Positions 8,368 through 51,284 of a DNA stretch of 64,000 nt are shown here, in pieces (position 1 is the first letter of the stretch; every line of letters starts with the position of its first letter). Both the position numbers and the translations under genes were made by a program. The stretch comes from an uncultured Alphaproteobacteria bacterium. Its GTDB lineage: Bacteria; Pseudomonadota; Alphaproteobacteria; UBA828. The DNA is taken from contig CAJXFT010000001.1 of assembly GCA_913053235.1 (NCBI GenBank), positions 2,785-66,784 on the forward strand. The letters are read 5' to 3'. The notes beneath the pieces are model-generated. The model searched no databases and was not told the DNA's origin. It saw only the letters and a program-made list of their open reading frames with translations.

Positions 8368-8368
8368 A

Positions 8369-17877: not shown

Positions 17878-17899
17878 TTTTCTCTCTTGCTTCGCCGCT

Positions 17900-23636: not shown

Positions 23637-23640
23637 TGCC

Positions 23641-37081: not shown

Positions 37082-38208
37082 CGGCGTCCGCCGACCTTCG
37101 CGTCCTGGCCGCCATCGGCCCGGCCGCTCAGGCCGAGGCGCTGGCCGCGATAGCTGCCGTCGCGCACCCGTTTGCACCAGCCTTCATTGTCGAGATACCA
37201 GCGCACGGTTTTTTCCAACCCGCTGGCGAAACTCTCGGCCGGGCGCCAATCGAGCTCGGCGGCGATGCTGTCGATCTCTATGGCGTAGCGCCGGTCATGG
37301 CCGGGCCGGTCTTCGACGAAGGCGATGAGATCGCGGTGGCGACTCGCGCCGGCGCCCGGCGCCAGGCGATCGAGGATATCGCAAATCGCTTCGACGACGT
37401 CGATATTCGCCCGCTCGGCGGCGCCGCCGATGCAATAGGTGCGCCCCGGCACGCCGGCGCTCAAGACCCGGCGCAGCGCACGCGCATGATCTTCGACATG
37501 GAGCCAGTCGCGCACCTGGCGGCCGTCGCCATAGATCGGTAGCGGCTTGCCCTCGAGGGCGTTCAGGATAGATAGCGGAATCAGCTTTTCGGGGAACTGG
37601 CAGGGCCCGTAATTGTTGCTGCAATTGGTGGTCAGCACCGGCAGGTCGAAGCTCTGCTGCCAGGCACGGGCGAGATGGTCGGCCGCCGCCTTGCTGGCGG
37701 CATAGGGCGAGTTGGGGCGGTAGGGATGGCCGGCGGCGAAGGGCGGCGCATCCGGCTCAAGCGCGCCGTAAACCTCGTCGGTCGAGACCTGGAGAAAGCG
37801 GAAGCCGCCTTCGCCGAGCGCGCGGCCAGGATCGGAGACATGCCGCGCGCAATATCCGCGCGCGGCCTCAAGAAGAGTGTAGCTACCGAGGATATTGGTT
37901 TCGATGAACGGCGCCGGGCCGTCGATCGAGCGGTCGACATGGGATTCGGCGGCGAGATGCATAATCGCGTCGGGCCGATAATTCTCGAACAGGCGCGCCA
38001 TCGCTTCCGCGTCGCACACATCCGCCTGCTCGAAACGGTAATTGGCGGCAGCCGCCGCATCGCCGAGCGATTCGAGATTTCCGGCATAGGTCAGCTTGTC
38101 GATATTGACCACCAGATGTTCGCTCTCGGCGACCAATTGGCGGACCACGGCCGAGCCGATAAAACCGGCGCCGCCGGTGACCAGTATCGTCCATTGCGCG
38201 GCGTTCAT
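37078..38208 (-). CDS. rmlB: dTDP-glucose 4,6-dehydratase
   Basis: [16 protein letters not shown]...[10 protein letters not shown]...STDEVYG...[11 protein letters not shown] are the RmlB hallmarks. Confidence 0.9.
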
Positions 38209-38825
38209 TGCCCACTCTCCGGCGATCGCTCGACGTGAAGCAGATGCGGCGTCAACACGCGCGCCGGCGGCAGGCTTCGGATGAGATCGTCATAGACCGC
38301 CTGCGGCGCGTCGAGGGCGGTGAGGATGACGGCGTCGGGGCGGTCGAGCGCGCCGATCGAGGCGACGACCGGCAAGCCCAACAGTGTCTCGCCATGGCGC
38401 CCGCCATCGATCACGCCGAGCAGGACGACATCATGTTCGCGCGCCGAGAGAATGGCGATCTCGGCCAGCTCGCCGGCGCCGGCGAGGGCCAGATGGCGCC
38501 AGCCGGCGGCGCTGCATTGCTCGTATATCGAAGTATATTGCACCCGCGAGCGGCGGAAGAAGGTCAGCGAATCGGAAAGAAATTCGGCGGTCAGGCGGGT
38601 TTTTTCGGTAAACCCCTGCGGCGTCAGATAGTAGGCGTAGCGATTGGGCGGAATCTCGCTGATTTTGATCAGCCCCTTGCGCACGCAGCGCTTGACATAA
38701 CTGTTGGTCATGCCGAGCGCGATGCCCAGTTCCTTGGCCAAAGTGCGCTGATTGACATGCTCCGATTCGCCGACGCGGACCAGAATGTCGCGGATGATGG
38801 CGTCGTCGCGCGCTTTGCGGGTCAT
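38205..38825 (-). CDS. Winged helix-turn-helix transcriptional regulator (MarR-like N-terminal domain + uncharacterised C-terminal domain)
   Basis: [31 protein letters not shown] is an HTH. Divergent to the phosphonate operon. Confidence 0.65.
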
Positions 38826-39200
38826 CCGGCGATCCCGCCAAACAAAATGCGCGGCGGCCCCGGGCGATTCCGCATATTGGCAATTAACATGTTGATATAA
38901 TGTAGAATTTTGAGACGCTACCGCCGTTCCGGGTGCAAGGCTGCGGCCCGGTCGGCGGTGAATCGCGAATCCGCGAATCGGGCCTTACGATGCCCCGGCG
39001 GAACCTGATATGTTATATGTTCAAACTTTGAACAGTGTTGCTCCGCCTATCGTTCACGAATTGAACGCCGAATCAAGGGCTTTGTTCATTTTTTGAACGC
39101 GGGGGCATGTTCGGCGCCCGGCGATTCCACGGGCATTTTCTCGCCACTTTCGGCATGCTACGATTCGCAAAATCGGGCCAAAACGGAAAACGGGCGGGTC
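38826..39200. promoter_or_regulatory. Divergent regulatory region with an extended -10 promoter and three GTTCA-N-TGAAC inverted repeats
   Basis: TGATATAAT at ~38893-38901. Palindromes: tgttcaaactttgaaca at 39018-39034, cgttcacgaattgaacg at 39051-39067 and gttcattttttgaac at 39084-39098, with centres ~32-33 bp apart. Confidence 0.5.
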
Positions 39201-40871
39201 ATGGCGACAAAATTGGACGGCGCGCCGGCGAGCCGGGCGCCGCGCTCCAAGGCGGAAATGCTGAAAGCTGCGCTCCTCAAGGCCGAGCTGGCCTTTGTCA
39301 TGGAGGCGCATAACGGTCTTTCGGCGAAAGTCGTCGAGGAGGCCGGGTTCGAGGGCATTTGGGCCTCCGGGCTGGCGATGTCGGCGGCCTTGGGCGTGCG
39401 CGACAACAACGAAGCCTCGTGGACCCAGGTGCTCGAACAGCTCGAATTCATGGCCGACGCCACCAGCATTCCGATTCTGGTCGACGGCGATACCGGCTAC
39501 GGCAATTTCAACAATGTGCGCCGGCTGGTGAAGAAGCTGTGCCAGCGCGGCGTCGCCGGGGTGTGCATCGAGGACAAGCTGTTTCCGAAGACCAATTCCT
39601 TCATCGGCGAGGGCCAGCCGCTCGCCGATATGGAGGAGTTTTCGGGCCGCATCAAGGCCGGCAAGGACAGCCAGGAGGACGAGGATTTCCAGCTCATCGC
39701 CCGCGTCGAAGCGCTGATATCGGGCCTCGGCATGGCTGAGGCTTTGCGCCGCGCCGAGGCCTATCACAGCGCCGGCGCCGACGGAATTTTGATACATTCG
39801 AAGAAGGCCGACGCCGAAGAGATCCTCACCTTCAGCCGCGAATGGGCCGGGCGCGCGCCCCTCGTGATCGTGCCGACGATGTATTACGCCACCCCGACCG
39901 ACGCTTTCCGCGATGCCGGCGTGTCGCTGGTGATCTGGGCCAACCATAACTTACGCGCCGCCTTGAGCGCGATGCGCGAGACCAGCCGGCGCATCATGGA
40001 GGAGCAGTCGCTGACCTCGGTCGAAGGCGAGGTCGCCGGCGTCAAGGAGATCTTCGACATCGTCGGGCAGGGCGAGCTGGCGGCGGCCGAGGCGCGCTAC
40101 CTCAAACCCAAGGGCGGCGATTACAAGGCCATCATACTCGCCGCGTCGCGCGGCTCGGCGCTCGGGCCGCTCACCGAACGGCTGCCCAAATGCATGCTCG
40201 ACATCCGCGGCCAGCCGCTGCTCAAGCGCCTGATGACGACGCTGGCTGAGGGCGGTTTGCGCGACATCAGCGTGGTGCGCGGCTACGCCAAGGAAATGAT
40301 CGATCTCGCCAATCTGCGCGTCATCGACAATGACGCCTTCGCCGACAATAGCGAAGCGGCGTCGCTCGCCTGCGCCGCCGCCGAGCTCGATGGCGCCTGC
40401 GTTGTCTCATACGGCGATATCCTGTTCCGGCCCTATATTCTGGAAAATTTGCTCGCCTCGTCCGGCGATATCAGCGCCGTGATCGACGCCCGCTGGCGCG
40501 GCACCGGCCACCGCGCGGCCGAGCGCAAGGTCGATCTCGCACGCTGCAGCCGCGCCTTCACCGGCGATTATCTCGACGAGGAACCGGTATGGCTGGAGGC
40601 CATCGAATCGGCTGCCGGAGAAGGCGGCGAGAGCGACGCGCCGGACGGCGAATTCATCGGCCTGATCAAATTGAGCGCCGCCGGCGCGCACGCGGTGCGC
40701 CGCGAATTGCAGGCGATGGAGGCCGAGGGGGTGCTCGATGAGGCCGATCTGCCGGCGCTCTTAAACCGGCTGATCGCGCGCGGCGAGAAGATCGAAGCGC
40801 TCTATGTGACCGGGCATTGGCTCGATGTCGATGATGCTTTCGATCTCGCCAAGGCGCGCAATCTCGTGTGA
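39201..40871 (+). CDS. pepM: Phosphoenolpyruvate mutase fused to a C-terminal nucleotidyltransferase (phosphonate cytidylyltransferase-like)
   Basis: [47 protein letters not shown] is the PEP-mutase signature. The C-terminal ~230 aa ([32 protein letters not shown]) form a nucleotidyltransferase fold. Start ATG at 39201. Confidence 0.85.
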
Positions 40872-40878
40872 TACCAAG

Positions 40879-42015
40879 ATGATCGCGGCGGATGATTTTC
40901 TCGCGCCGGCGCGGGCGCTCGGATTTGATTTCTATTCCGGCGTCCCGTGCTCCTTTCTGGCGCCGCTGATCAACCGCGTGATTTCCGACCCCGGGCTTGA
41001 CTATGTCGGCGCCACCAGCGAGGGCGAAGCGCTGGCGATCGCCGCCGGCGCCTGGCTGGCCGGGCGCAAGTCGGTGGTGATGTGCCAGAACTCGGGCCTC
41101 GGCAACACCGTCAACCCGCTGACTTCGCTCAATTACCCGTTCCGCATCCCGACCCTGTTGATCGTCACCTGGCGCGGCCAGCCCGGCCTCGAGGACGAGC
41201 CGCAACATGAATTGATGGGCCAGATCACGGCTGAGCTGCTCGATGTCATGCAGGTGCCGCACGCGCCTTTCCCGAGCGACGAATCGGGCGTCGCGGAGGT
41301 GCTGGAGAAGGCCTACAAAAGCATGGCGATAAGCGGCCTTCCCTTCGCCCTCATCATGGCCAAGGGCGCGGTGGCGGCCGAGACGCTCGACCCACCGCCG
41401 CCGCCGCCGTCGCCGGCCGGCGATTTGCACGACCGCTCAAGCGGCGGAGAGCGCCCGGCCCGCGCCGAGGCGCTGCAAACCCTGCTCGCCGTGACGCCCG
41501 GCGATGCCGCCATCATCGCCACCACCGGAAAGACCGGGCGCGAATTGTTCACCCTGGCGGACCGCCGCCAGCAGCTCTATCAGGTCGGCTCGATGGGCTG
41601 CGCCGGGGCCATGGGATTGGGCGTCGCGCTCAATGTGAAACGCCCGGTCATCGTCATCGACGGCGATGGCGCGGCGCTGATGAAGCTCGGCGCGCTGGCC
41701 ACCATCGGCGCCCATGCGCCGGACAATCTCCTGCATCTGATTCTCGACAATGGCGTGCATGATTCGACCGGCGGCCAGGCCACGGTGTCGCCCGGCGTCT
41801 CGTTCGCCGGCGCGGCGCGGGCGTGCGGCTACCGGTCCAGTCATGTTTGCGATTCGCTGGACGGTTTCGCAGTCGCACTGGAAGAAGGGTTGGCCGGTGC
41901 CAAGCCGTGCCTGATCCATCTGCGCACCGCGCCGGGCTCGCTCAGCCCGTTGGGACGGCCGACGCTGGCGCCTTCCCAGGTGGCGCGGCGTTTTCGCGAC
42001 TTCCTCGCCTCGTAA
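40879..42015 (+). CDS. ppd: Phosphonopyruvate decarboxylase (TPP-dependent)
   Basis: Two-domain TPP enzyme with the Mg/TPP motif GDGAALMKLGALATIG...N. Immediately follows PEP mutase, as in phosphonate pathways. Confidence 0.8.
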   Translation: MIAADDFLAPARALGFDFYSGVPCSFLAPLINRVISDPGLDYVGATSEGEALAIAAGAWLAGRKSVVMCQNSGLGNTVNPLTSLNYPFRIPTLLIVTWRGQPGLEDEPQHELMGQITAELLDVMQVPHAPFPSDESGVAEVLEKAYKSMAISGLPFALIMAKGAVAAETLDPPPPPPSPAGDLHDRSSGGERPARAEALQTLLAVTPGDAAIIATTGKTGRELFTLADRRQQLYQVGSMGCAGAMGLGVALNVKRPVIVIDGDGAALMKLGALATIGAHAPDNLLHLILDNGVHDSTGGQATVSPGVSFAGAARACGYRSSHVCDSLDGFAVALEEGLAGAKPCLIHLRTAPGSLSPLGRPTLAPSQVARRFRDFLAS

Positions 42016-42026
42016 TGTCCGTGCCG

Positions 42027-42524
42027 TCAGATCGGCTCGACATCGCCGCCGGCGACGGAAACGCGCACCTCGCGGCCCATCAGTTTCAGCAGGATCAAAA
42101 CCCGGTCGGAATCGAGCTCGGCCTCGAAGATGCCCTCCAGATCGGCCATCGGCCCGCCCTGGACGCGCACGCTATCGCCGGGTTTGATGGCGCGCCGCGC
42201 GATCTCGAAAACGCCGTCGGCGCCGGCCCGGGCTCTCAGCGCCTCGATGATATCGCCGCCGATGGCGAGCGGGCCGTCGGCCCCCGAAACCATGGTGTGG
42301 ACGCCATAGGTCGAGAGTATGGGCCGCCAGGTCTGGCTCGAGAGGTCGAGCCGGACGAACAGATAGCGCGGGAAAAGCGGCCGCGGAACGCTTTCGACCC
42401 GGCGTGCATGGCGCCGCGTCTTGTGGTACATCGGCAGCCAGACCTCATAGTTCTGACGCACCAAATTGGTCTCGGCCCGTTGCTCCGAGTTGACCCGGCA
42501 ATGGACCACATACCATTGTCTCAT
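42027..42524 (-). CDS. NusG/RfaH-family transcription antiterminator paralog (NGN + KOW)
   Basis: MRQWYVVHCRVNSEQRAETNL NGN domain and a C-terminal KOW-like region. A stand-alone gene inside a polysaccharide island is typical of RfaH/LoaP-like specialised paralogs. Confidence 0.7.
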   Translation of the reverse strand: MRQWYVVHCRVNSEQRAETNLVRQNYEVWLPMYHKTRRHARRVESVPRPLFPRYLFVRLDLSSQTWRPILSTYGVHTMVSGADGPLAIGGDIIEALRARAGADGVFEIARRAIKPGDSVRVQGGPMADLEGIFEAELDSDRVLILLKLMGREVRVSVAGGDVEPI

Positions 42525-42603: not shown

Positions 42604-43620
42604 ATGTCTTCGGTACAGTTTTCGGCAAGCTCTAAATATTCCGTGAAGCGGTTCGTCATGATCGCGGCCAAACTTGCCGTCACCGGCGGCTTGGTCTGGT
42701 ACCTGTTGCGCGAGGTCGATTTGGATGAAAGCGGCGAGCATCTGGCCGGCTTCGACGCCGGATTGGGCATCGTCGCACTTCTGGTGGTGGCGTTGCTGTT
42801 CCTCATCGCCGCCCTGCGCTGGCGCATTTACGCGCGGGCGCTGAACATTTCGCTCAATGTCGGCACCGCCTTTCGCCTCTATCTCATCGGCCAGTTCTTC
42901 GGTCAGATTTTGCCCGCCGGCGTCGGCGGCGATGCGGTGCGGGTGTGGCTGTTGGCGCGCCGCGGCGTCGCCGTCGGGCCGGGCGCGTCGAGTGTCGTGC
43001 TCGAACGCCTGACCGGCCTGATCGGCATTGTGATTCTGATAGCCGTCCTGTTGCCGCTGACCTTTAGCTATGTCGGTGATTCGGGGATGCGCCTCTACCT
43101 CGTCCTGATTCTCGCCATCGCCGCCGCCGGGATATCCGCCATCATCGGGCTTTCCTTCGTGCCGCGCCTGATCACCAGGTGGCGCGCGGTGGCGGTGATC
43201 TCCAAACTGGCCGACGTGGCGAGCGAGGCGCGCCACACCGGTTTGATGCTGAAACCGGCGCTCAGCGTTTTGCTGCTGTCCGTCTTCATGCATCTGCTGG
43301 CGGTGCTCACCGTCTATATTCTGGCGCTCGGGCTCGGCATGGAGATTACGCCGCTCGCCTGCCTGGCGCTGGTGCCCGTCGTCCTGCTGCTTTCCACCCT
43401 GCCCATTTCGGTGGCCGGCTGGGGGGTGCGTGAAACCGTGATGGTGTCGGCGCTGGGTTTCGCCGGCGCCGAATCGAGCGAAGCGTTCGCGCTCTCGATC
43501 CTGTTCGGCCTGGCGCTTTTGGCTCTCAGTCTGGTCGGCGCGGTCATGTGGCTGGTTCAGGGGCGCGCCAATGCGCGCCGGCCGATCGGCGACAAAAAAG
43601 GCAGCGAGGCCGCGCTCTGA
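42604..43620 (+). CDS. Integral membrane protein, lysylphosphatidylglycerol-synthase-TM-region / flippase-like (UPF0104)
   Basis: ~8 TM helices and the GDAVRVWLLARRG motif typical of the LPG_synthase_TM family. Start may be M19 (42658). Confidence 0.65.
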   Translation: MSSVQFSASSKYSVKRFVMIAAKLAVTGGLVWYLLREVDLDESGEHLAGFDAGLGIVALLVVALLFLIAALRWRIYARALNISLNVGTAFRLYLIGQFFGQILPAGVGGDAVRVWLLARRGVAVGPGASSVVLERLTGLIGIVILIAVLLPLTFSYVGDSGMRLYLVLILAIAAAGISAIIGLSFVPRLITRWRAVAVISKLADVASEARHTGLMLKPALSVLLLSVFMHLLAVLTVYILALGLGMEITPLACLALVPVVLLLSTLPISVAGWGVRETVMVSALGFAGAESSEAFALSILFGLALLALSLVGAVMWLVQGRANARRPIGDKKGSEAAL

Positions 43621-45116
43621 TGGATTCGGAAGCCAATCCGCTTCGCCTTGTCGCCGAATCGCAGGACGAGAACCGGCGACAACGGCGCGCCGACCTGATT
43701 CGCGAATATTATGACCGCGTCGCGCCGGAGCGTGACAAGTGGATCTCGCGCAACGCCTATTTCCACGATGAGGACAGCCGCTTCGCGCGTTTTCTCGTGC
43801 CGCCCGGCCTCAAAGTTTTGGATCTCGGCTGCGGCACCGGGCAGATGCTGGCGAATCTCAAACCATGTCAAGGCGTCGGCATCGACATCAGCGCCAAAAT
43901 GGTCGACGCGGCACGGCGCAATTACGCGGCGGACCGCCATCCCAACCTCAGCTTCGAGGTCGGTGATATCGAGGAACCCGAGACTCTCGATGCGCTCGAC
44001 GGCCCCTTCGATGTGATCATCCTTTCCGATACCGTCGGCCTCTTGGACGATGTCGAGGCCACCCTGGCCAGCCTGCACAACCTGTCCTCGAACGAGACGC
44101 GCATCGTGGTCGCCTATTATTCCTGGCTGTGGACACCGACGATTGCGCTGGCCGAGCTGTTCGGCGCCAAGATGCCGCAAATCCCACTCAACCGGCTCGG
44201 GCCGGAGGATGTTTCGGCGCTGCTGGAGTTGGCGGATTTCGACGTCATCAAACGGGATTGGCGTCAACTTCTGCCCAAACGCCTGTTCGGCGCCGGCCCG
44301 CTCATCAATCGATCGCTGGCGGTGCTGCCCCTTATCCGCCGCTTCTGCGTTCGCCATTACGTCGTCGCGCGCTCGCGTCGTCATGCCGGGCTCGACAATC
44401 CCTCCACTACGGTCGTCATTCCGTGCCGCAACGAGCGCGGCAACATCGCTCCCGCCGTCGATCGGCTCCCCGAATTTTGCGATGAAATGGAAATTCTCTT
44501 CGTCGAGGGTCACAGCAGCGACGGCACGCGGGAGGAAATCGAGCGCGTCATCGCGCGCCACCCGGAGCGCGATATCAAGCTGCTGCTGCAGGACGGCGAA
44601 GGCAAGGGCAACGCGGTGCGTGCGGCCTTCGACGCCGCGCGCGGCGATATCCTCATGATACTCGACGCCGATTTGACCGTGCCGCCCGAGGCACTGCCCA
44701 AATTCTACAATGCGCTGGTCGGCGGCAAGGGAGAGTTCATCAACGGCACGCGGCTGGTCTATCCGATGGAAAAGCGCGCCATGCGGCCGCTCAATCTGAT
44801 CGCCAATTTCTTCTTCTCGATGGTCTTTTCCTGGCTCCTCAACCAGCGCTTCACCGATACGCTGTGCGGCACCAAGGTGTTGACCAAGGCGCATTATCTC
44901 GACATCGCGAAAAACCGTGCCTATTTCGGAAACTTCGATCCGTTCGGCGATTTCGACCTCATCTTCGGCGCCTCCAAGCTCAACCTGAAAGTGATCGAAA
45001 TCCCCATCCGCTACGCCGAGAGAACCTATGGCAGCACGCAAATTTCGCGCTTCCGCCACGGTGTCCTGTTGCTGCGCATGGTGGTTTTCGCATTTCGCAA
45101 GCTGAAGGCCTTCTGA
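43620..45116 (+). CDS. Bifunctional SAM-dependent methyltransferase / family-2 glycosyltransferase (Dpm1-like)
   Basis: N-terminal VLDLGCGTGQMLANL (methyltransferase motif I). C-terminal VVIPCRNERGNI...ILMILDADLT (GT2, DxD) plus a TM tail. ATG at 43620 in a TGATG overlap with the flippase-like gene. Confidence 0.75.
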   Translation: MDSEANPLRLVAESQDENRRQRRADLIREYYDRVAPERDKWISRNAYFHDEDSRFARFLVPPGLKVLDLGCGTGQMLANLKPCQGVGIDISAKMVDAARRNYAADRHPNLSFEVGDIEEPETLDALDGPFDVIILSDTVGLLDDVEATLASLHNLSSNETRIVVAYYSWLWTPTIALAELFGAKMPQIPLNRLGPEDVSALLELADFDVIKRDWRQLLPKRLFGAGPLINRSLAVLPLIRRFCVRHYVVARSRRHAGLDNPSTTVVIPCRNERGNIAPAVDRLPEFCDEMEILFVEGHSSDGTREEIERVIARHPERDIKLLLQDGEGKGNAVRAAFDAARGDILMILDADLTVPPEALPKFYNALVGGKGEFINGTRLVYPMEKRAMRPLNLIANFFFSMVFSWLLNQRFTDTLCGTKVLTKAHYLDIAKNRAYFGNFDPFGDFDLIFGASKLNLKVIEIPIRYAERTYGSTQISRFRHGVLLLRMVVFAFRKLKAF

Positions 45117-45856
45117 TGCCCGGCGCCGCGCCGGCGGCGGCGCATTTGGACTCATATCGCGCGACATGGCGAAACAAGGCGGCATTGCGCGCCGTCTATG
45201 GCGATTATTACCGGCGCATGGTCAAACAGTTGAATCCCGGACCGACGCTGGAACTCGGCGCCGGCAGCGGGCAGTTGCGTGAGCATCTTAAGGGTGCCGT
45301 GCTGACCGATATTCAGACGGCGCCCTGGCTCGACGCCGCCGCCGACGCCCAGGCGCTGCCGTTCCGCACCGCCTGCTTTGAGAATATCGTTATGCTGGAC
45401 GTTCTTCATCACGTCGAAAACCCGCCGCAATTTTTTGCCGAGGCGGCGCGCGTGCTCAGGCCGGGCGGGCGAATGGTTATGCTGGAGCCGGCGATTACGC
45501 CGCTCAGCGCCCTGTTCTACCGCTATCTCCATCCCGAGCCGGTCGATATGGGGCAGGATCCGTTCGCCAGCCCGGCCGCCAGCCCCGAGCGCGGTCCGTA
45601 CGACGCCAACCAGGCGATTCCGACACTTTTATTCCGCCGCCAGCGGGCGCGCTTCGAACATCACTTTCCCGACTTCCGGCTGCTTCTGGTGCGCAATCTG
45701 AGCCTGTTCGTCTATCCGCTTTCGGGCGGCTACCGCCGTTGGAGCCTGGTGCCCGCCTTCCTCGTCCGCCCCTTGCTCTGCGCCGAGGACGGCCTGCTGG
45801 TCCTGTTGGGGCCGGTCATGGCCTTCCGCCTTTTCGTCCTGCTGGAGCGGCGCTAG
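45116..45856 (+). CDS. Class I SAM-dependent methyltransferase
   Basis: TLELGAGSGQL motif I. ATG at 45116 in a TGATG overlap. Confidence 0.7.
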   Translation: MPGAAPAAAHLDSYRATWRNKAALRAVYGDYYRRMVKQLNPGPTLELGAGSGQLREHLKGAVLTDIQTAPWLDAAADAQALPFRTACFENIVMLDVLHHVENPPQFFAEAARVLRPGGRMVMLEPAITPLSALFYRYLHPEPVDMGQDPFASPAASPERGPYDANQAIPTLLFRRQRARFEHHFPDFRLLLVRNLSLFVYPLSGGYRRWSLVPAFLVRPLLCAEDGLLVLLGPVMAFRLFVLLERR

Positions 45857-45859
45857 GGT

Positions 45860-46705
45860 ATGATGTCGACCAGGCAAAAGATTCGGCTCGCCGGTGCCGC
45901 CGCGCGCCTGGTCAACGGCGTGCGGCGCGGCGTCGGTGCCGGCGATGATGCCGAAGTGCGGCGCGGCGGCCTCAATTGGCGGCTCGAGCTCGGCGAAGGC
46001 ATCGATTTTGCCATATATCTCCTCGGCGCGTTCGAACGCGCGACGCAGCGCCAATATGGACGACTCCTCAAGCCGGGCGACGTGGCGCTTGATATCGGCG
46101 CCAATATCGGTGCCCACACCCTGCCCATCGCGCGCCTCGTCGGCGCCGCCGGGTCGGTGCATGCCTTCGAGCCGACGGCGTTCGCTTTCGCCAAGCTGAA
46201 GGCGAATATCGCTCTCAATGCCGATCTCGCGAAACGCGTGCACGCGCATCAAATGCTGTTGAGCGACAGCGCCGGGGATGCACCGCCGGCCGCGTTGGCG
46301 GCGAGCTGGCCGCTCGGCGAGCGTGCGGGAGGGCATCCGCTGCATGGCGGCCATGAAAAGACGACCGCCGGCGCCGCGGCGGAGACGCTCGATTCATATG
46401 TCGCGCGACAGCGAATCGAGCGCATCGACTTCATCAAACTGGATGTCGACGGAAACGAATGCCACGTCCTGCGCGGCGGACAGGATACGCTGCGGCGCTT
46501 GCAACCGCCCATTATCCTGGAATTGGCCCCCTATATATTTTCCGGCGGCGAGAACAGCTTCGAAGCCTTCATCGGGCTGCTGCGCGACGCCGGCTACAGA
46601 TTGTTGCGGTCGCCGGGCGGTGCCGCGCTTGCGCTCGACGCGGCGGCGCTTGGCGACAGCATTCCGAACGGCGCCAGCATCAACGCCTGGGCGATGCGGG
46701 CATGA
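45860..46705 (+). CDS. FkbM-family methyltransferase
   Basis: VALDIGANIGAHTLPIARL...VHAFEP is typical of FkbM. Confidence 0.7.
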   Translation: MMSTRQKIRLAGAAARLVNGVRRGVGAGDDAEVRRGGLNWRLELGEGIDFAIYLLGAFERATQRQYGRLLKPGDVALDIGANIGAHTLPIARLVGAAGSVHAFEPTAFAFAKLKANIALNADLAKRVHAHQMLLSDSAGDAPPAALAASWPLGERAGGHPLHGGHEKTTAGAAAETLDSYVARQRIERIDFIKLDVDGNECHVLRGGQDTLRRLQPPIILELAPYIFSGGENSFEAFIGLLRDAGYRLLRSPGGAALALDAAALGDSIPNGASINAWAMRA

Positions 46706-48090
46706 CGCCGGCGCGCACGCTATGGCTCGTTTTCGCCGGCGCGCTGGTGATCCGCCTCGCCTATACGCTGGGCCTTTATATCGGCATCGGCGCGGAAGCT
46801 TTTCTCGTCGAGGATTCAATTCCTTATCTGGAACTCGGCAAAATCTTCGCTTCCGAGGGCGATTTATTGCGCGAAACGGATGTCGCCGGGCAGTTTGAGC
46901 CCGAAGTAGAACGCATGCCGCTCTACTTGATTTGGCTGGCCGTGCACCAATTGGTGAGCGGCATGTCGGCGCCGCTTTTTCCGGCCTTGACCCAAGGTGC
47001 CGTGGACGCGTTTTCCTGCGTCCTCATCGCGCGCACGGCGATGCTTGTCGATCCCCGCCTGCTGCTGCCCGCCGGTCTGTTTGCCGCGTGCAATCCAACC
47101 CAGATCATCGTCGGCGCGATGATCCTCACCGATTCGCTGTTTTTCTTTTTCGTCTGCCTCATGCTCTATGGCGCCGTGCAATGGCTGCGCCGGCCGGCCT
47201 GGCGTTGGGCGCTGCTGTTGGGCCTGGCCCTGGGTCTTGGCGTTTCCACCCGCGTCATGTTGCTGCCGGCGGCGGCGGCGCTGGCGGTCCTGCTGCCGCT
47301 GGCATCGATTTGGCTGCGCCGTTTCCGCATTGCCGGCATCGCCCATGTGCTGGTTTTCATCGCCATCTGCGCGGCGCTCCAGGCCCCCATTCTGGCCCGC
47401 AATATCAGCCGCTACGACAGCGTTCAATTTACCAACCAAGGCGGTGCCTATGAGTTGCTGTGGCTGGCGCCGCTGGTATTGGAAGCGGTCGACGGCACGC
47501 CGCACGCCGAAGGGGCGCGGCAAATGTATCAGCGTTACAAACGCGAAATCGGCGGGGTGGAGCCCGACAATCCGTTCGAGCGCTCGGCCTTGATGTCGGT
47601 CACGGCGCGGAACATCATCGCCGAGTTGGGCGTCCTCGCCACCGTCAAGGCGTGGCTGATCGGCGGCGCCATCAATATATTTTCGCCGGCGGCGATCCTG
47701 TCACCGCCGGTGAGCAACCTGGCGCATACCGGTTTCTACGATATGGCGGGCGACACCAAATTGGAAAAACTGTCGACCTTCCTGTTCCGCAACGACAACC
47801 CCGCCTATGCCTGGGTGTTGATCGTCAGCTTTCTCGCCCTTTTGGCGGTGCGCGCCGGGCAATTGTTCGGCCTCGGCCACGGCCTGTTTCGCCGAGCAAG
47901 CCGCGAGACGCGCATCATTCTCATCCTGATGCTGCTCTGGACCCTCTACATTCTGCTCGTCAACGGCCCCATCGCCTCGGCCAAATACCGCCTGCCGATC
48001 GAGCCCTTCAGCGCCATCTGCGCGGCGTTCGCCTATCTGGCGTGGCGCGATTGGATGGGTCGCCGCGCGGCGCGGCGCCGAGCAGGATAG
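46702..48090 (+). CDS. GT-C fold glycosyltransferase (ArnT/PMT, GT39/GT83-like), polytopic membrane protein
   Basis: ~11 TM helices. ATG at 46702 is an ATGA overlap with FkbM. Assigned from topology and family-like loops. Confidence 0.6.
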   Translation: MTPARTLWLVFAGALVIRLAYTLGLYIGIGAEAFLVEDSIPYLELGKIFASEGDLLRETDVAGQFEPEVERMPLYLIWLAVHQLVSGMSAPLFPALTQGAVDAFSCVLIARTAMLVDPRLLLPAGLFAACNPTQIIVGAMILTDSLFFFFVCLMLYGAVQWLRRPAWRWALLLGLALGLGVSTRVMLLPAAAALAVLLPLASIWLRRFRIAGIAHVLVFIAICAALQAPILARNISRYDSVQFTNQGGAYELLWLAPLVLEAVDGTPHAEGARQMYQRYKREIGGVEPDNPFERSALMSVTARNIIAELGVLATVKAWLIGGAINIFSPAAILSPPVSNLAHTGFYDMAGDTKLEKLSTFLFRNDNPAYAWVLIVSFLALLAVRAGQLFGLGHGLFRRASRETRIILILMLLWTLYILLVNGPIASAKYRLPIEPFSAICAAFAYLAWRDWMGRRAARRRAG

Positions 48091-49315
48091 CGCTCAAGAC
48101 AAGAAAGACGCCCTGCCACCACGCCGCCCAAATCGAGAAATTGAGCATCGAGGACGACCAGAAAGCGACGAATATGGCGACGCCGGCGGCCGCCGTCAGG
48201 GGCGATGTGGCGCCGATCCTGAGCCATAGCCGCAACAGCAGCGCCAACGCCGCGAGCAGGGCGGCAAAGCCGAAAGCCCCGGTTTCGAGGAATATTTCGA
48301 GCGGCCAGCTATGCGGATGGGAGGGGATGAATGTCTGGTTGAATTTTTCGAAAAGCACGGAGGCGCCGGGAAGATAATTGCTGACATCGATGCCATGTCC
48401 GAAATAAGGCTTCTCCAGCGCCGCATCGAACGAGAAACTCCAAATATATTGGCGGTGCGCGTCGACCAGCGAGGTCGGCAGGCCGGTCTCTATCGCGCCG
48501 TAATAGACACCATCGCGGATTTGCCCGGCGACCGGCGGCGGCGGCAGGCGGGTCAGCACCCAGGCGGTAGCGATGGCGAGCAGAACGGCGAGCAGGATCA
48601 AAAACAGCGGCGCCGCGCGCCCCCGCCACAGCCGCCAGCGCTGGCAGACATAGACGATAGCGCCGACCACAAATGCGGCGATGAGGCCGAGCAGCCCGGC
48701 CAGGCTGTCGACGGCGAGGATCAGCACCAGGGCGGCGGCCAAATGCACCACGGCGGCATAAAACCAAACCCGGCCGAGGCGGAAGCCGGCCCACAGCACC
48801 GCCGGCGCCAGGCAGGCCAGGGCGGAGCCATAATATTTGAGCAGTTGCGCGGCGTTGACATCGACCCACCCCTTGCCGCGAAAGAGGCCGTATATCGGGC
48901 TTGCCGCATAAAGGCCGAGGAGCGCGATGAGAGCGCAAACCGAGGCGGCGACGATCATGGCGCGCAGACAGGTGTCGAGCCCGCCGCGCGAAAGAAAATA
49001 ATGAATCAGCGCCGCCACACCCACCATGCCGACCATGCGCCCCCAGGCGCCGAGCGAGCGCCCGAGTTCCGGCGAATCGGCGACGCCCGGCAACCATAGG
49101 AGAAAGGTCAGGATGATCGCCAGGCCGAGCGGCGTGCGCGCGCCGCGCAGCACATCGCCGGCCAATTGCCGGCGCCCCGGCGCCGCCAGCATGAGCAGCA
49201 GGGCGAGGGCCAGCGCGGCCAGGGTGACGGCCTTGCCCGACGCCACAAGCGGAACGCCGATTCCAGCGAATATGGCGGCGCCGAGCGCCAGCCAATCCCT
49301 GTTCGCAACCGACAA
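48008..49315 (-). CDS. O-antigen ligase / Wzy_C-family membrane protein
   Basis: Polytopic protein with a Wzy_C-like periplasmic loop. TTG at 49315 has GGAGGAG 10 nt upstream. The ATG at 49513 is a less likely alternative. Confidence 0.6.
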   Translation of the reverse strand: MSVANRDWLALGAAIFAGIGVPLVASGKAVTLAALALALLLMLAAPGRRQLAGDVLRGARTPLGLAIILTFLLWLPGVADSPELGRSLGAWGRMVGMVGVAALIHYFLSRGGLDTCLRAMIVAASVCALIALLGLYAASPIYGLFRGKGWVDVNAAQLLKYYGSALACLAPAVLWAGFRLGRVWFYAAVVHLAAALVLILAVDSLAGLLGLIAAFVVGAIVYVCQRWRLWRGRAAPLFLILLAVLLAIATAWVLTRLPPPPVAGQIRDGVYYGAIETGLPTSLVDAHRQYIWSFSFDAALEKPYFGHGIDVSNYLPGASVLFEKFNQTFIPSHPHSWPLEIFLETGAFGFAALLAALALLLRLWLRIGATSPLTAAAGVAIFVAFWSSSMLNFSIWAAWWQGVFLVLSAILLGAAPRGDPSNRATPDRRTPRRWR

Positions 49316-49511
49316 AAGCCCGGCTCCTCCGTGGCAAGGTTGGTAAGATATTGTGATGTAACACCGCAATCGGGAAGCGGCAAACGGCTGCTTTGGCGTT
49401 TGCGCCGGCGCGCGCGCCGGCGCGCCGGCGGGGCCGTGGATTGACGCGCGGCGCAAGCGGGCGGTAGGTTCGCGGCGCAGCCCTTGCCAGCCCATCGAGC
49501 CCATAAAGAAC

Positions 49512-51284
49512 ATGATAATTCTCGGTGTCCACCCCGGATATCACGAGGCCGCCGCTTGCCTGTTCGACGATTATCGAATGATCTCCGCGGTCTCGCTCGA
49601 GCGCCTGACCCGGCGCAAGATCGATGGCGGGCGGGTGCCCGACGAGGCCATCGACGAATGCCTCGCCATCGCCGGTCTCAGGCGCCGCGAGGTCGATGCG
49701 GTGGTGCTCGGCCGCGGCGCCTTCGCGTGGCGCTATTACCGGCATTTTCGCGGCTCGCGCCTGCTCGAGGGCAAGGTCCGCCAGGCGCTCGGCAAGGAAA
49801 AGCACAAGAGCATGGAGCGCGAGCTGCTGCGCGCCGGCCATGCCGATTCGGCGTCGCTGTTCAACGGCGGCAAATTTCTCGGCGATTTCGGCTTCCGCTC
49901 AACGACCCGGCTCACCTTCTTCAACCACCATCTCGCCCATGCCCTGCCGACGCTCTTTCATACCGATTGGCGGGACGCGCTGCTCTATACCTCGGATGGC
50001 GGCGGCGACAATGTGCAATACAGCCATCGCGTTTTCCGGGACGGCGAGCTGCGTACCCTGTTCGGCGGCGACGAGTGTTTCGCCACGCCGGCGCGAATCG
50101 ACAGCCTGGGTCTCGCCTATGGCTACGCCACCCAGGCGCTCGGCTGGCGCATCAACCGCCATGAAGGCAAGCTCACCGGCCTGGCGGCGCTTGGCCAGCC
50201 CTCGGCGGCGGCGGCCATCGCGGCGCATTTCAGCGTCGATGCCGAGGGCCAGATCCTGAGCGACTTCGCCAGCAATCCCGAGCTCCGCCAGTTCATGTTC
50301 GAAACCGCGAAGGATATCCCGCGCGAGGACATGGCGGCCTCGATTCAAGAGGTGCTGGAACAGGTGACGCTCGAATCCGTGCGCCGCCTCCTTGAGCGCC
50401 ACGGCGTGCGCCGCCTCGGCCTTTCCGGCGGCGTGTTCGGCAATGTCCGCCTCAATCGCCTGTTGGCCGAGGAGACCGATATCGACGAGGTCTTCGTCTA
50501 CCCGGCGATGAGCGACCAGGGCCTGCCGGCCGGCGGGGTGCTGCAATATCTCCTGGAGCGCGACGGCATGAAAACATGGCTCGACGCGCGCACTCCGCTG
50601 GAGACGCTTTATTTCGGCCGCGACTGGGGACGCGACGCCGATAAGGTTTTCGCCGCCACGCCCGGCCTTGGCGTCGTATCGGACAACCCGGTCGACAAGG
50701 CGGCGGCGCTGATCGAGCAGGGCAAGGCGGTGGCGATATTCAGCCACGGCATGGAATACGGCCCGCGCGCGCTGGGAGCGCGCAGCATCCTCGCCTCGCC
50801 CGCCGATGCCGGCATCAACGATGCGCTCAACCGGCGGCTCTCGCGCTCCGAATTCATGCCCTTCGCGCCGGTCGTCGCCGAGGGTGACGCCGAGACGCTG
50901 TTCGATATCGGCGCGCGCAACCGCTATACGGCGCGCTTCATGACCATCACCTGCGACGTCAAGCCAGCCTGGCGGTCGCGCATCCCGGCCGTCGTGCATG
51001 TCGACGGCACGGCGCGGCCGCAAGTAATTCGCCGCGCCGACAATCCGCTCTATTACGATATTCTCGCCGCTTTCAAGCAACTGAGCGGCCTGCCGACGAT
51101 GATCAACACCAGTTTCAACGTGCATGAGGAGCCGATCATCAACAGCCCCGAGGAGTGCGCGCGCGCACTGCGCGACGACCGGGTGGATTACGTCGTCACG
51201 GAGGACGCGGTTTATGGAGCCACGGAGGACGCGGTTTATGGAGCCACCGAGAAAGCGGTTTACGAACGCGAGAGCGGCGCATGA
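49512..51284 (+). CDS. Carbamoyltransferase (NodU/CmcH family)
   Basis: MIILGVHPGYHEAAACLFDD...SLERLTRRK N-terminus and a C-terminal CmcH domain. Carries a tandem 24-nt repeat at its 3' end. Confidence 0.85.
   Translation: MIILGVHPGYHEAAACLFDDYRMISAVSLERLTRRKIDGGRVPDEAIDECLAIAGLRRREVDAVVLGRGAFAWRYYRHFRGSRLLEGKVRQALGKEKHKSMERELLRAGHADSASLFNGGKFLGDFGFRSTTRLTFFNHHLAHALPTLFHTDWRDALLYTSDGGGDNVQYSHRVFRDGELRTLFGGDECFATPARIDSLGLAYGYATQALGWRINRHEGKLTGLAALGQPSAAAAIAAHFSVDAEGQILSDFASNPELRQFMFETAKDIPREDMAASIQEVLEQVTLESVRRLLERHGVRRLGLSGGVFGNVRLNRLLAEETDIDEVFVYPAMSDQGLPAGGVLQYLLERDGMKTWLDARTPLETLYFGRDWGRDADKVFAATPGLGVVSDNPVDKAAALIEQGKAVAIFSHGMEYGPRALGARSILASPADAGINDALNRRLSRSEFMPFAPVVAEGDAETLFDIGARNRYTARFMTITCDVKPAWRSRIPAVVHVDGTARPQVIRRADNPLYYDILAAFKQLSGLPTMINTSFNVHEEPIINSPEECARALRDDRVDYVVTEDAVYGATEDAVYGATEKAVYERESGA
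51199..51270 (+). repeat. Tandem 24-nt repeat (acggaggacgcggtttatggagcc x2 plus a degenerate third copy) encoding TEDAVYGA-TEDAVYGA-TEKAVYER
   Basis: Read directly at the 3' end of the carbamoyltransferase CDS. Confidence 0.8.

What the first reader, a model, noticed from the sequence alone, without database searches (positions are those of the whole stretch)
39201..42015. Phosphonate module (PEP mutase-nucleotidyltransferase fusion + Ppd) lacking a transaminase, adjacent to a methyltransferase-rich glycosylation operon
PEP mutase is fused to a nucleotidyltransferase domain, consistent with the nucleotidyl-activation route for phosphonates (CMP-phosphonate). It is followed by phosphonopyruvate decarboxylase. 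No AEP transaminase or alcohol dehydrogenase follows, so the phosphonate end-product is undefined in this window. The downstream plus-strand operon (42604-48090) has a flippase-like protein, a methyltransferase-GT2 fusion, two more SAM methyltransferases (one FkbM) and a GT-C enzyme. This pattern would fit synthesis, N-methylation and transfer of a (methyl)aminoethylphosphonate-like head group onto a lipid-linked glycan.
Basis: partly seen in the sequence, partly recalled or inferred. Interest (0 to 1): 0.78.

Follow-up and report, generated by a model that had tools for sequence, protein, structure and literature searches.

The report
Surface-glycan phosphonate module without linked transaminase
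A marine alphaproteobacterium carries a real two-gene carbon-phosphorus (phosphonate) module inside a large cell-surface sugar locus; the module is a known type, the next enzyme is missing nearby in a whole lineage, and the neighbouring methyltransferase operon is an independent sugar-decorating cassette rather than a phosphonate-methylating one.

Summary
Window 39201-40871 encodes a PEP mutase (equivalog-level HMM score, [10 protein letters not shown] motif) fused to a C-terminal LicC/PntC-like nucleotidyltransferase domain. Window 40879-42015 encodes phosphonopyruvate decarboxylase.

No AEP transaminase, alcohol dehydrogenase or other known branch-point enzyme lies in the 64-kb window. None lies within the fetched flanks of about 18 related loci (58-96% identity) either.

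The fusion is not new: Rice et al. 2019 found PF12804 fused to about 33% of PEP mutases. Clusters with Ppm and Ppd but no branch enzyme are a catalogued class ('post-Ppd other', Li & Horsman 2022).

The relatives fall into two exclusive context types. One is a phosphonolipid type with AEPT, a second PntC, a dioxygenase and a CDP-alcohol transferase. The other is the window's type, always next to MarR, RfaH and the flippase-like / MT-GT2 / MT / (FkbM) / GT-C cassette.

That cassette also occurs, equally similar, in three loci with no Ppm in the flanks held. Its GT2 domain resembles polyprenyl-phosphate sugar synthases. The methyltransferases are therefore most likely sugar-directed, not phosphonate N-methylases.

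Best reading: the module supplies phosphonoacetaldehyde, an unlinked enzyme converts it (probably to AEP), and a CMP-activated phosphonate decorates LPS or capsule. Interest is moderate.

The parts
39201..40871 (+). PEP mutase (about residues 1-300) fused to a C-terminal LicC/PntC-like nucleotidyltransferase domain (about residues 305-556)
   Evidence: TIGR02320 scores 386.9 bits against a cut-off of 319.55. PF13714 and PF12804 both hit. The [10 protein letters not shown] motif is present. A profile of the NT domain against PDB sequences gives LicC 1jyk E=2e-17 and PntC 6pd1 E=6e-11.
40879..42015 (+). Phosphonopyruvate decarboxylase (Ppd), 378 aa
   Evidence: TIGR03297 scores 412.1 bits against a cut-off of 312.5, and TPP_enzyme_N and TPP_enzyme_C both hit. 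The start was set by homologue length.
38205..38825 (-). MarR-family EPS-associated regulator, divergent from Ppm and always adjacent to it in this lineage
   Evidence: PF13412 hits; TIGR04176 scores 60.8 bits, below its cut-off of 88. Adjacency is conserved in the type-A loci.
38914..38925 (-). ops-like element GGCGGTAGCGTC in the leader of the leftward MarR operon
   Evidence: It matches the ops consensus at 11 of 12 positions. The same element lies at the same place and strand in 8 of 8 related loci, with perfect GGCGGTAGCGTG in L005 and L089.
42027..42524 (-). RfaH-like NusG paralogue, convergent with Ppd; separates the phosphonate pair from the cassette
   Evidence: PF02357 hits. TIGR01955 RfaH scores 131.6 bits, below its cut-off of 144.5.
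42604..43620 (+). LPG_synthase_TM / flippase-like membrane protein (first gene of the cassette)
   Evidence: PF03706 scores 163 bits; TIGR00374 flippase-like domain hits.
43620..45116 (+). Class-I SAM methyltransferase fused to a polyprenyl-phosphate-type GT2 glycosyltransferase
   Evidence: Pfam methyltransferase families and Glycos_transf_2 hit. Nearest solved sequences are DPMS 5mlz, ArnC and GtrB. Orthologues in Ppm-less loci are 65% identical.
45116..45856 (+). Stand-alone class-I SAM methyltransferase
   Evidence: Methyltransf_11 hits. Start. Orthologues in the Ppm-less loci L088, L091 and L125 are 52-56% identical.
45860..46705 (+). FkbM-family methyltransferase (optional member of the cassette)
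   Evidence: PF05050 scores 81 bits; TIGR01444 hits. It is absent from some related loci such as L083 and L089.
46702..48090 (+). Polytopic GT-C-like glycosyltransferase, 462 aa
   Evidence: Weak PF02366 PMT hit (25.4 bits, cut-off 22.7). Homologues hit PMT_2 weakly (L089), and a GT87 protein sits in the L088 cassette. No PDB sequence hit.
48008..49513 (-). Wzy_C / O-antigen-ligase-like membrane protein
   Evidence: PF04932 scores 50.7 bits. It is conserved in most type-A loci.

Best explanation
This is a cell-surface phosphonate tailoring module embedded in an LPS / O-antigen / capsule locus of a marine alphaproteobacterium.

Steps supported by equivalog-level HMM scores and the motif:
1. The Ppm domain isomerises PEP to phosphonopyruvate.
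2. Ppd pulls that unfavourable equilibrium forward by decarboxylating phosphonopyruvate to phosphonoacetaldehyde.

Steps that are inferred:
3. An enzyme not encoded nearby converts the aldehyde. The most likely candidate is a PhnW-type AEP transaminase giving 2-aminoethylphosphonate. A reductase giving 2-hydroxyethylphosphonate is less likely.
4. The fused LicC/PntC-like domain condenses the phosphonate with CTP to give a CMP-phosphonate.
5. An unidentified transferase puts the phosphonyl group on a glycan made by the surrounding locus.

The adjacent flippase-like / MT-GT2 / MT / FkbM / GT-C operon is a separate three-component cassette. It makes a polyprenyl-phosphate sugar (probably methylated), flips it across the membrane and adds it to the same surface glycan from the periplasmic side. 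It does not process the phosphonate.
For: - Ppm and Ppd are identified above curated equivalog cut-offs, and the EDKX5NS motif is present.
- The NT domain's best solved relatives by profile are LicC (2e-17) and PntC (6e-11). PF12804 enzymes of this kind make CMP-AEP (PMC6697681).
- The NT domain keeps PK..M, YGD and G.W.D motifs. Fifty positions are at least 90% conserved and identical between the window's lineage and AEPT-bearing relatives, and only 3 positions are lineage-specific. This argues for the same chemistry in both.
- The context is nonulosonic-acid, dTDP-sugar, Wzy_C, WecA-like, carbamoyltransferase, MarR-EPS and RfaH genes plus conserved ops-like elements.
- The cassette is independent of Ppm, and its GT2 domain is nearest to DPMS, ArnC and GtrB.
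- Marine bacteria with pepM and ppd put phosphonates on surface macromolecules (PMC8931226).
Against: - No enzyme for the step after phosphonoacetaldehyde, and no CMP-phosphonate transferase (LicD or CDP-alcohol type), was found in the 64 kb or in about 18 related loci. Two steps of the pathway therefore rest on unlinked or unrecognised genes.
- The absence is lineage-wide and stable, which is less expected if a canonical AEPT were simply elsewhere.
- The fused NT domain lacks the canonical G-x-G-T-(R/K) arginine (it has [10 protein letters not shown]).
- In the papers read here, cytidylyltransferase activity on AEP is reported for PntC enzymes that are not fused to Ppm (Ari-PntC and the AEPT-fused Tde1415), not for a Ppm-fused PF12804 domain (PMC6697681).
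- AEPT-bearing relatives also carry a second, stand-alone PntC, so the fused domain may not be the AEP cytidylyltransferase.
Confidence: 0.55

Rival explanations
1. The downstream methyltransferase-rich operon works on the phosphonate: it N-methylates an AEP-like head group, and the GT2 / flippase / GT-C trio carries it onto a lipid-linked glycan.
For: - Ppm-NT/Ppd adjacency to the cassette is conserved in about 18 loci down to 58% Ppm identity.
- In a midpoint-rooted neighbour-joining tree, Ppm-NT of these loci forms one clade.
- The best solved-sequence hits of the MT domain include plant phosphoethanolamine N-methyltransferases, E about 1e-9. This is generic class-I methyltransferase similarity.
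Against: - Cassette orthologues at equal similarity occur in L088, L091 and L125, with no Ppm or Ppd in the flanks held.
- The GT2 domain is of the polyprenyl-phosphate sugar synthase type.
- No aminotransferase is present to make an amine.
- A convergent RfaH gene separates the two units, so they are not co-transcribed.
Confidence: 0.1
2. A non-canonical route. Phosphonoacetaldehyde is not converted by AEPT or PhpC at all. Either it is activated as a nucleotide conjugate and aminated by a DegT-type (sugar-nucleotide) aminotransferase, or it is reductively coupled to one of the many amino sugars of the locus to give an N-(2-phosphonoethyl) sugar. A comparable route was proposed for Fibrobacter N-hydroxyethyl-AEP.
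For: - All known branch-point enzymes are stably absent across the lineage.
- Li & Horsman list such 'post-Ppd other' clusters as likely sources of new phosphonates, and suggest reductive amination for Fibrobacter (PMC8942020).
- A DegT orthologue group 60-73% identical to window 432-1568 lies directly beside Ppm-NT in four AEPT-less loci (L002, L006, L007, L010) and three genes from it in L085.
- The window holds three DegT genes and two nonulosonic-acid pathways.
Against: - In the window each DegT has an ordinary partner set. 432-1568 sits with a 3-dehydrogenase and an acetyltransferase; the same trio occurs in the Ppm-less locus L125. 16675-17979 is PseC above its cut-off, and 30218-31399 is LegC-like.
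- No reductase or imine-forming enzyme is conserved next to Ppm.
- The idea rests on absence of evidence plus an analogy.
Confidence: 0.17
3. The pair makes a soluble small-molecule phosphonate, or is a relic, and its place in the glycan locus is incidental.
For: Ppm/Ppd is a stand-alone two-gene unit flanked by genes on the opposite strand. No transferase for the phosphonate was identified.
Against: - Motifs are intact and third-position GC is high (0.83-0.84), like the neighbours.
- The pair is 58-96% conserved in about 18 loci, always in the same surface-glycan context.
- No tailoring enzymes typical of natural-product clusters are present (ATP-grasp, NRPS, oxygenases).
Confidence: 0.06

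Closest known systems
Ppm-PntC fusion proteins of the phosphonyl tailoring (Pnt) pathway (Rice et al. 2019, PMC6697681)
   Same: PEP mutase with the EDKX5NS motif is fused to a PF12804 MobA-like/LicC-like nucleotidyltransferase domain. Ppd is adjacent, and the setting is cell-surface.
   Different: PntC activity on AEP was shown for Ari-PntC and for Tde1415, a PntC-AEPT fusion, not for a Ppm-fused domain. Here the P-loop is LAASRGxxLG instead of GxGT(R/K). No AEPT accompanies it.
'Burkholderiales_CDP-OH' phosphonolipid-type clusters (Li & Horsman 2022, PMC8942020). These match the 'type B' relatives found here.
   Same: The Ppm-NT fusion is homologous over its full length (58-67% identity) and Ppd is homologous.
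   Different: Type B also encodes AEPT, a second PntC, a PhyH-type dioxygenase, a CDP-alcohol phosphatidyltransferase and its own LPG_synthase_TM. The window's lineage has none of these. It has the MarR / RfaH / MT-GT2 cassette context instead.
'Post-Ppd other' unclassified ppm neighbourhoods (Li & Horsman 2022), for example Clostridium GCF 599 with a methyltransferase and sugar genes, and Fibrobacter GCF 60
   Same: Ppm and Ppd are present, none of the seven known branch-point enzymes is nearby, and sugar and methyltransferase genes are nearby.
   Different: This is a different taxon (marine Alphaproteobacteria MAGs) with a different, strictly conserved neighbour set. Its product is unknown.
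Lic pathway (LicC cytidylyltransferase with LicD transferase) for phosphocholine decoration
   Same: The NT domain's best solved relative is LicC (E=2e-17). The presumed logic is CMP/CDP activation of a small phospho(no) head group before transfer to a glycan.
   Different: No LicA, LicB or LicD homologues were found. The substrate is a phosphonate made in situ.
Three-component periplasmic glycosylation systems (GtrA/GtrB/GtrV; ArnC/ArnE-F/ArnT; Ppm1 with GT-C mannosyltransferases)
   Same: The cassette has a polyprenyl-phosphate GT2 (nearest DPMS, ArnC, GtrB), a membrane flippase candidate and a GT-C-like transferase in one operon.
   Different: The flippase candidate is of the LPG_synthase_TM type, not GtrA or ArnE/F. 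The GT2 carries an N-terminal SAM methyltransferase, and one or two further methyltransferases belong to the cassette. I did not find it characterised in the literature I searched.

Membership tests
PEP mutase (TIGR02320 / PF13714 subgroup) | Equivalog HMM score above the curated cut-off | tested here: met
   386.9 bits against a cut-off of 319.55. The sister families score below their own cut-offs: phosphonopyruvate hydrolase 250, methylisocitrate lyase 147, CPEP mutase 101.
PEP mutase (TIGR02320 / PF13714 subgroup) | EDKXXXXXNS active-site motif that separates Ppm from other isocitrate-lyase-family members | tested here: met
   [10 protein letters not shown] is present. It is invariant in 14 aligned homologues and occurs, with minor variants, in all 76 related loci.
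PEP mutase (TIGR02320 / PF13714 subgroup) | Catalytic interconversion of PEP and phosphonopyruvate | not testable with these tools
   Needs an enzyme assay or 31P-NMR.
Phosphonopyruvate decarboxylase (TIGR03297) | Equivalog HMM above cut-off, with both TPP-binding domains, encoded next to Ppm | tested here: met
   412.1 bits against a cut-off of 312.5. TPP_enzyme_N and TPP_enzyme_C both hit. The start lies 7 nt after the Ppm stop.
PntC / LicC-type phospho(no) head-group cytidylyltransferase (PF12804) | PF12804 domain above the gathering score, with LicC/PntC among the closest solved relatives | tested here: met
   PF12804 scores 46.7 bits against 27. With the profile, LicC 1jyk is the top hit at 2e-17 and PntC 6pd1 is fifth at 6e-11. 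Sugar-1-P nucleotidyltransferases fall in between.
PntC / LicC-type phospho(no) head-group cytidylyltransferase (PF12804) | Canonical NTP-binding loop (L)AAGxGT(R/K)L | tested here: not met
   The window has [10 protein letters not shown]. Across 77 fused domains the R/K position is variable (A, K, E, G, D, Q), while an Arg two residues upstream is mostly conserved. The functional consequence is unknown.
PntC / LicC-type phospho(no) head-group cytidylyltransferase (PF12804) | Other catalytic and structural motifs of the fold (PK..L lysine, metal-binding Asp, G.W.D.G) | tested here: met
   PKCM, YGD and TGHWLDVDD are conserved in both context types.
PntC / LicC-type phospho(no) head-group cytidylyltransferase (PF12804) | Specificity for CTP and AEP (amine contacts equivalent to Tde-PntC Glu104 and Glu196) | tested here: inconclusive
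   The sequence alignment covers only the N-terminal half. The YGD Asp falls one column from LicC D105, and the Glu196 equivalent could not be aligned.
Canonical AEP biosynthesis cluster (Ppm-Ppd-AEPT) | A class-V aminotransferase (PhnW/AEPT) in the neighbourhood | tested here: not met
   No Aminotran_5 and no tblastn hit to a related AEPT in the 64 kb or in about 18 type-A loci. Thirty-six type-B relatives do have it.
'Post-Ppd other' class of ppm neighbourhoods (Li & Horsman 2022) | Ppm and Ppd present, and none of AEPT, PhpC, PhnY, PalB, VlpB, FrbC or RhiG nearby | tested here: met
   Pfam and NCBIfam scans of the window's coding ORFs show none of the corresponding families. The class definition comes from PMC8942020.
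Three-component polyprenyl-phosphate glycosylation cassette (Gtr/Arn-like) | A GT2 of the polyprenyl-phosphate sugar synthase type | tested here: met
   Nearest solved sequences are DPMS 5mlz (4.8e-11), ArnC (1.5e-10) and GtrB. NCBIfam hits AglJ and dolichyl-P hexose transferase below their cut-offs.
Three-component polyprenyl-phosphate glycosylation cassette (Gtr/Arn-like) | A GT-C transferase and a dedicated flippase in the same operon | tested here: inconclusive
   The GT-C call rests on a weak PMT hit (25.4 bits against 22.7) and on PMT_2 and GT87 hits in homologous cassettes. There is no PDB sequence hit. The flippase candidate is LPG_synthase_TM, not GtrA.
RfaH/ops regulon | An RfaH orthologue plus an ops element in the leader of the regulated operon | tested here: inconclusive
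   RfaH TIGR01955 scores 131.6 bits, below the cut-off of 144.5. ops-like GGCGGTAGCGT[CG] is conserved in 8 of 8 loci, but on the strand of the leftward MarR operon, not of Ppm.

The most novel reading that the evidence does not exclude
The window's lineage ('type A') represents a widespread, conserved route in marine Alphaproteobacteria. In it, phosphonoacetaldehyde from a Ppm-NT/Ppd pair is turned into a surface-glycan phosphonate without any of the seven known branch-point enzymes. Possible routes are a nucleotide-linked intermediate, a DegT-type aminotransferase, or reductive coupling to an amino sugar. The product would be a so far undescribed phosphonoglycan, and possibly a source of polysaccharide-bound phosphonate in marine dissolved organic matter.
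Probability: 0.17. Interest if true: 0.7.

Novelty: new member of a known kind. Interest (0 to 1): 0.4.

Why it matters
Phosphonates are a large pool of marine organic phosphorus, and few producers or products are known (PMC8931226). This locus type is common in ocean metagenomes: Tara, JGI and ENA contigs all carry it, and one MT-GT2 orthologue is indexed in 25 blocks of the contig collection. It places C-P synthesis inside an LPS/capsule locus.

If the missing step is simply encoded elsewhere, this is one more AEP-decorated surface glycan. If it is truly absent from the genome, the lineage would be a clean system for finding a new branch point after phosphonoacetaldehyde.

Two side results are useful for annotation. 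Ppm-NT relatives split into a phosphonolipid context and a glycan context that exclude each other. The flippase-like / MT-GT2 / MT / GT-C cassette is an independent, widely conserved and apparently uncharacterised module.

Tried and rejected
1. Looked for the missing enzyme in the window. All coding ORFs picked by third-position GC were scanned with Pfam or NCBIfam. A tblastn search used AEPT, PntC2, PhyH and CDP-OH transferase taken from relatives. Nothing was found.

2. Considered the conserved 344-aa SDR at 35100-36134 as a phosphonoacetaldehyde reductase. Rejected: it is LegB-like (388 bits on TIGR04180, below its cut-off of 475) and sits with LegC-, PtmE- and NeuB-like genes.

3. Considered the DegT at 432-1568 as a substitute AEPT, because its orthologues flank Ppm-NT in L002, L006, L007 and L010. 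Not adopted for the window: here and in the Ppm-less locus L125 it belongs to a dehydrogenase / acetyltransferase / aminotransferase trio. It is kept as a lead.

4. Asked whether RfaH/ops controls the Ppm operon. The conserved ops-like site is on the opposite strand, so it serves the MarR operon.

5. Tried to read NT substrate specificity from alignments to LicC and PntC. Only the N-terminal half aligns, so this was inconclusive.

6. Could not search the rest of any type-A genome.

7. Did not spend the third large protein search on AEPT, because hits cannot be tied to a genome.

8. Did not run structure prediction. It would confirm the fold but would not give residue-level superposition.
Full report
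**What is in the sequence**

In this report "Ppm-NT" means the PEP mutase-nucleotidyltransferase fusion protein.

Third-position GC content and HMM scans define a compact gene set around the finding.
- 38205-38825 (-): MarR-family EPS-type regulator.
- 39201-40871 (+): a 556-aa protein whose N-terminal ~300 residues are a PEP mutase.
- 40879-42015 (+): phosphonopyruvate decarboxylase (Ppd).
- 42027-42524 (-): an RfaH-like NusG paralogue.
- 42604-48090 (+): an operon of five translationally coupled genes.

The PEP mutase scores 386.9 bits on TIGR02320 (cut-off 319.55) and 214.7 bits on PF13714. Its C-terminal ~250 residues are a PF12804 nucleotidyltransferase domain. Ppd scores 412.1 bits on TIGR03297 (cut-off 312.5).

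The five operon genes are:
- LPG_synthase_TM flippase-like, 42604-43620
- methyltransferase-GT2 fusion, 43620-45116
- class-I methyltransferase, 45116-45856
- FkbM methyltransferase, 45860-46705
- a 462-aa polytopic GT-C-like protein, 46702-48090

Ppd starts at 40879 rather than 40825.

**The rest of the window is one large surface-glycan island**

It contains:
- two NeuB genes and two CMP-nonulosonate synthetases
- a PseC equivalog
- LegB- and LegC-like genes and a CBS-nucleotidyltransferase
- HisH/HisF-like amidotransferase genes
- RfbA and RfbB
- a 3-dehydrogenase / acetyltransferase / DegT trio
- a KpsS/C-like capsule gene and an ABC exporter
- a pyruvate kinase-ATP sulfurylase fusion with a sulfatase-family protein
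- Wzy_C
- a NodU/CmcH-type carbamoyltransferase
- a WecA-like GT4
- a PglF-like dehydratase

None of the ORFs scanned is a class-V aminotransferase, an iron alcohol dehydrogenase, an aldehyde dehydrogenase, a homocitrate-synthase-like enzyme or a 2-hydroxyacid dehydrogenase. A tblastn search with an AEPT taken from a related locus finds nothing in the 64 kb. The observation "no transaminase or dehydrogenase follows" is therefore correct, and it extends to the whole window.

**How unusual the fusion is**

It is not unusual. More than 8000 proteins in the large protein collection match at E<=1e-10. The listed ones almost all have the PEP_mutase + NTP_transf_3 architecture and a length of about 555 aa.

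Rice et al. 2019 reported that 59.5% of motif-bearing Ppm proteins are fused to another domain. About 33% are fused to PF12804 (PMC6697681).

Li & Horsman 2022 sorted ppm neighbourhoods by seven branch-point enzymes. About 13% could not be assigned. Most of those encode Ppm and Ppd ('post-Ppd other'), including clusters with methyltransferase and sugar genes (PMC8942020). The finding is a member of that catalogued class.

**Comparative context**

I collected 80 loci from GTDB species genomes, 33 from metagenomes, and ten look-ups of exact proteins. I clustered their ORFs and scored presence or absence with tblastn.

The relatives split into two context types that exclude each other.
- **Type B (36 loci).** These carry AEPT. 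Most also carry a second stand-alone PF12804 nucleotidyltransferase, a PhyH dioxygenase, a CDP-alcohol phosphatidyltransferase and an LPG_synthase_TM protein. This matches the phosphonolipid-type 'Burkholderiales_CDP-OH' core of Li & Horsman.
- **Type A (the window plus about 18 contigs, Ppm-NT identity 58-96%).** These always show MarR | Ppm-NT, Ppd | RfaH | flippase-like, MT-GT2, MT, (FkbM), GT-C. They usually also show Wzy_C, carbamoyltransferase, WecA-like GT4 and a LegB-like SDR.

Type A never shows AEPT, PntC2, PhyH or the CDP-alcohol transferase in the flanks held.

In a midpoint-rooted neighbour-joining tree of Ppm-NT, type A is a single clade. The lack of a linked transaminase is thus an old, stable trait of a lineage, not an assembly accident. 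The window's MT-GT2 is 100% identical to a protein from a marine Alphaproteobacteria MAG that is also found in Tara data.

**Is the methyltransferase-rich operon part of the phosphonate pathway?**

Conserved adjacency argues for a link, but three results argue against a direct role.

1. Cassette orthologues occur with no Ppm or Ppd in the 8-9 kb flanks held:
   - Sulfuricella denitrificans (L088)
   - a Sulfuricella MAG (L091, next to GDP-6-deoxyhexose genes)
   - a Rhodospirillales MAG (L125)

   The table gives percent identity to the window's proteins.

   | Protein | Ppm-less loci (L088, L091, L125) | Distant Ppm-bearing type-A locus (L126) |
   |---|---|---|
   | MT-GT2 | 65% | 64% |
   | MT | 52-56% | 45% |
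   | FkbM | 49% | 41% |
   | flippase-like | 33-36% | 37% |

   The Ppm-less copies are at least as similar as the Ppm-bearing one.

2. The nearest solved relatives of the GT2 domain are dolichyl-phosphate mannose synthase, ArnC and GtrB. With a membrane flippase candidate and a GT-C-like protein, this is the layout of a polyprenyl-phosphate sugar system that modifies a glycan from the periplasmic side.

3. The two units are separated by a convergent gene and cannot be one transcript.

The methyltransferases are therefore most simply sugar (or lipid-linked sugar) methylases. The MT domain's weak similarity to plant phosphoethanolamine N-methyltransferases is generic class-I similarity.

**The nucleotidyltransferase domain**

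As a single sequence it hits LicC (E=1.7e-13) and, only weakly, PntC/Tde1415 (E=0.03). As a 16-sequence profile it hits LicC first (2e-17) and PntC fifth (6e-11), with sugar-1-phosphate nucleotidyltransferases in between.

Fifty positions of the domain are at least 90% conserved and identical in type A and type B. Only three are type-specific. This suggests the same reaction in both contexts.

Two cautions apply.
- The whole alphaproteobacterial family has LAASRGxxLG in place of the canonical AAGxGT(R/K)L loop, and the R/K position is variable.
- Type B loci carry an additional stand-alone PntC. It is therefore not established that the fused domain is the AEP cytidylyltransferase.

In the papers read here, PntC activity on AEP is reported for Ari-PntC and the AEPT-fused Tde1415 (PMC6697681). 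Neither is a Ppm fusion.

**Most likely mechanism**

Ppm and Ppd make phosphonoacetaldehyde; this rests on strong family evidence. The next three steps are inferred.
- An unlinked enzyme converts the aldehyde. A PhnW-type transaminase giving AEP is most likely, and a reductase giving HEP is possible.
- The fused domain forms a CMP-phosphonate.
- An unrecognised transferase decorates LPS or capsule.

I give this about 0.55. The rivals are:
- a truly non-canonical route after phosphonoacetaldehyde, about 0.17
- a soluble product or relic, about 0.06

The remainder is unassigned.

The non-canonical route cannot be excluded. Absence of a branch enzyme is lineage-wide. A specific DegT orthologue group also sits directly beside Ppm-NT in four other AEPT-less loci. 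In the window, however, each DegT has an ordinary sugar-pathway partner set.

**Regulation**

An ops-like element (GGCGGTAGCGTC, 38914-38925, minus strand) lies in the MarR-Ppm intergenic region. It is conserved at the same place and strand in 8 of 8 relatives, and is perfect in two of them. Its orientation serves the leftward MarR operon, not Ppm. A second element lies 40 nt upstream of the carbamoyltransferase gene (49460-49471, +) and is conserved in 3 of 4 relatives. No ops-like site was found in the Ppm or cassette leaders.

**Verdict**

The finding is real and correctly located. Its parts are known families, and its 'missing transaminase' places it in a described class of unassigned ppm neighbourhoods. 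The proposed role of the methyltransferase operon is not supported.

What is new is modest. There is a conserved marine alphaproteobacterial locus type in which the Ppm-NT/Ppd pair is embedded in an LPS/capsule island without any known follow-up enzyme. Beside it lies a widely distributed and apparently uncharacterised methyltransferase-GT2 cassette.

Novelty: new member of a known kind. Interest: 0.4.

Noticed in passing
window 38914-38925 (-) and 49460-49471 (+); RfaH-like gene 42027-42524 (-): ops-like elements (GGCGGTAGCGTC and GGCGGTAGGTTC) lie in the leaders of the leftward MarR operon and of the carbamoyltransferase operon. The first is conserved in 8 of 8 related loci and the second in 3 of 4. 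The core GGCGGTAG occurs 8 times in the window against 1.36 expected.
   Followed up: partly
window 13732-15897 (-) and 12099-13694 (+); also L085 1526-5645, L125 1-69, L126 1-2304: A pyruvate kinase barrel is fused to PUA_2/ATP-sulfurylase (721 aa), next to a sulfatase-family protein. The same pair, fused or split and once with an APS kinase, recurs beside the phosphonate/cassette locus in relatives. It probably activates sulfate for a sulfated glycan. The reason for the pyruvate kinase partner is unexplained.
   Followed up: partly
L002 8498-9640, L006/L007/L010 (DegT directly upstream of Ppm-NT); window 432-1568 (-); L085 5698-6843: A DegT aminotransferase orthologue group (60-73% identical to the window copy) sits divergently next to Ppm-NT in four loci that lack AEPT. 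Three of them (L006, L007, L010) also lack Ppd and instead carry PhyH, hydantoinase A/B, a methyltransferase and an MFS transporter. This may be a different, undescribed phosphonate pathway.
   Followed up: partly
window 40140-40170 (NT-domain P-loop, residues about 314-323 of the fusion): The fused nucleotidyltransferase domains of this alphaproteobacterial family have LAASRGxxLG instead of the canonical AAGxGT(R/K)L. The catalytic R/K position is variable, and an Arg two residues upstream is mostly conserved.
   Followed up: partly
window 42604-48090; L088 5433-10177; L091 7043-12974; L125 9001-13706: The cassette of LPG_synthase_TM, methyltransferase-GT2 fusion, methyltransferase, (FkbM) and a GT-C/GT87-like protein is conserved between Alpha- and Betaproteobacteria, with MT-GT2 about 65% identical. 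I did not find it characterised in the literature I searched.
   Followed up: partly
window 7315-8508, 15890-19324, 21688-22425, 27440-32379, 35100-36134: There are two separate nonulosonic-acid pathways in one island. One is pseudaminic-type (PseC above cut-off, a CBS-epimerase, a CMP-sugar synthetase). The other is legionaminic-type (LegB-, LegC-, PtmE-like, NeuB, 2-epimerase). HisH/HisF-like amidotransferase genes lie at 23641-25085.
   Followed up: no
window 33635-34198 (-); L083, L085, L087, L098; L005 6545-7768: A DUF924 protein is conserved a few genes upstream of Ppm in most close type-A loci. In L005 it appears as a longer 407-aa protein. Its function is unknown.
   Followed up: no
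window 5688-7304 (-), 22377-23804 (-), 29811-30368 (+): These ORFs inside the glycan island (538, 475 and 185 aa) have no Pfam or NCBIfam hit. The first and third have coding-like third-position GC; the second lies in a lower-GC stretch.
   Followed up: no
window 43620-44200 (MT domain of MT-GT2): The best solved-sequence hits of the methyltransferase domain are plant phosphoethanolamine / phosphomethylethanolamine N-methyltransferases (E about 1e-9 to 1e-8). I judged this to be generic class-I methyltransferase similarity and did not examine it further.
   Followed up: no
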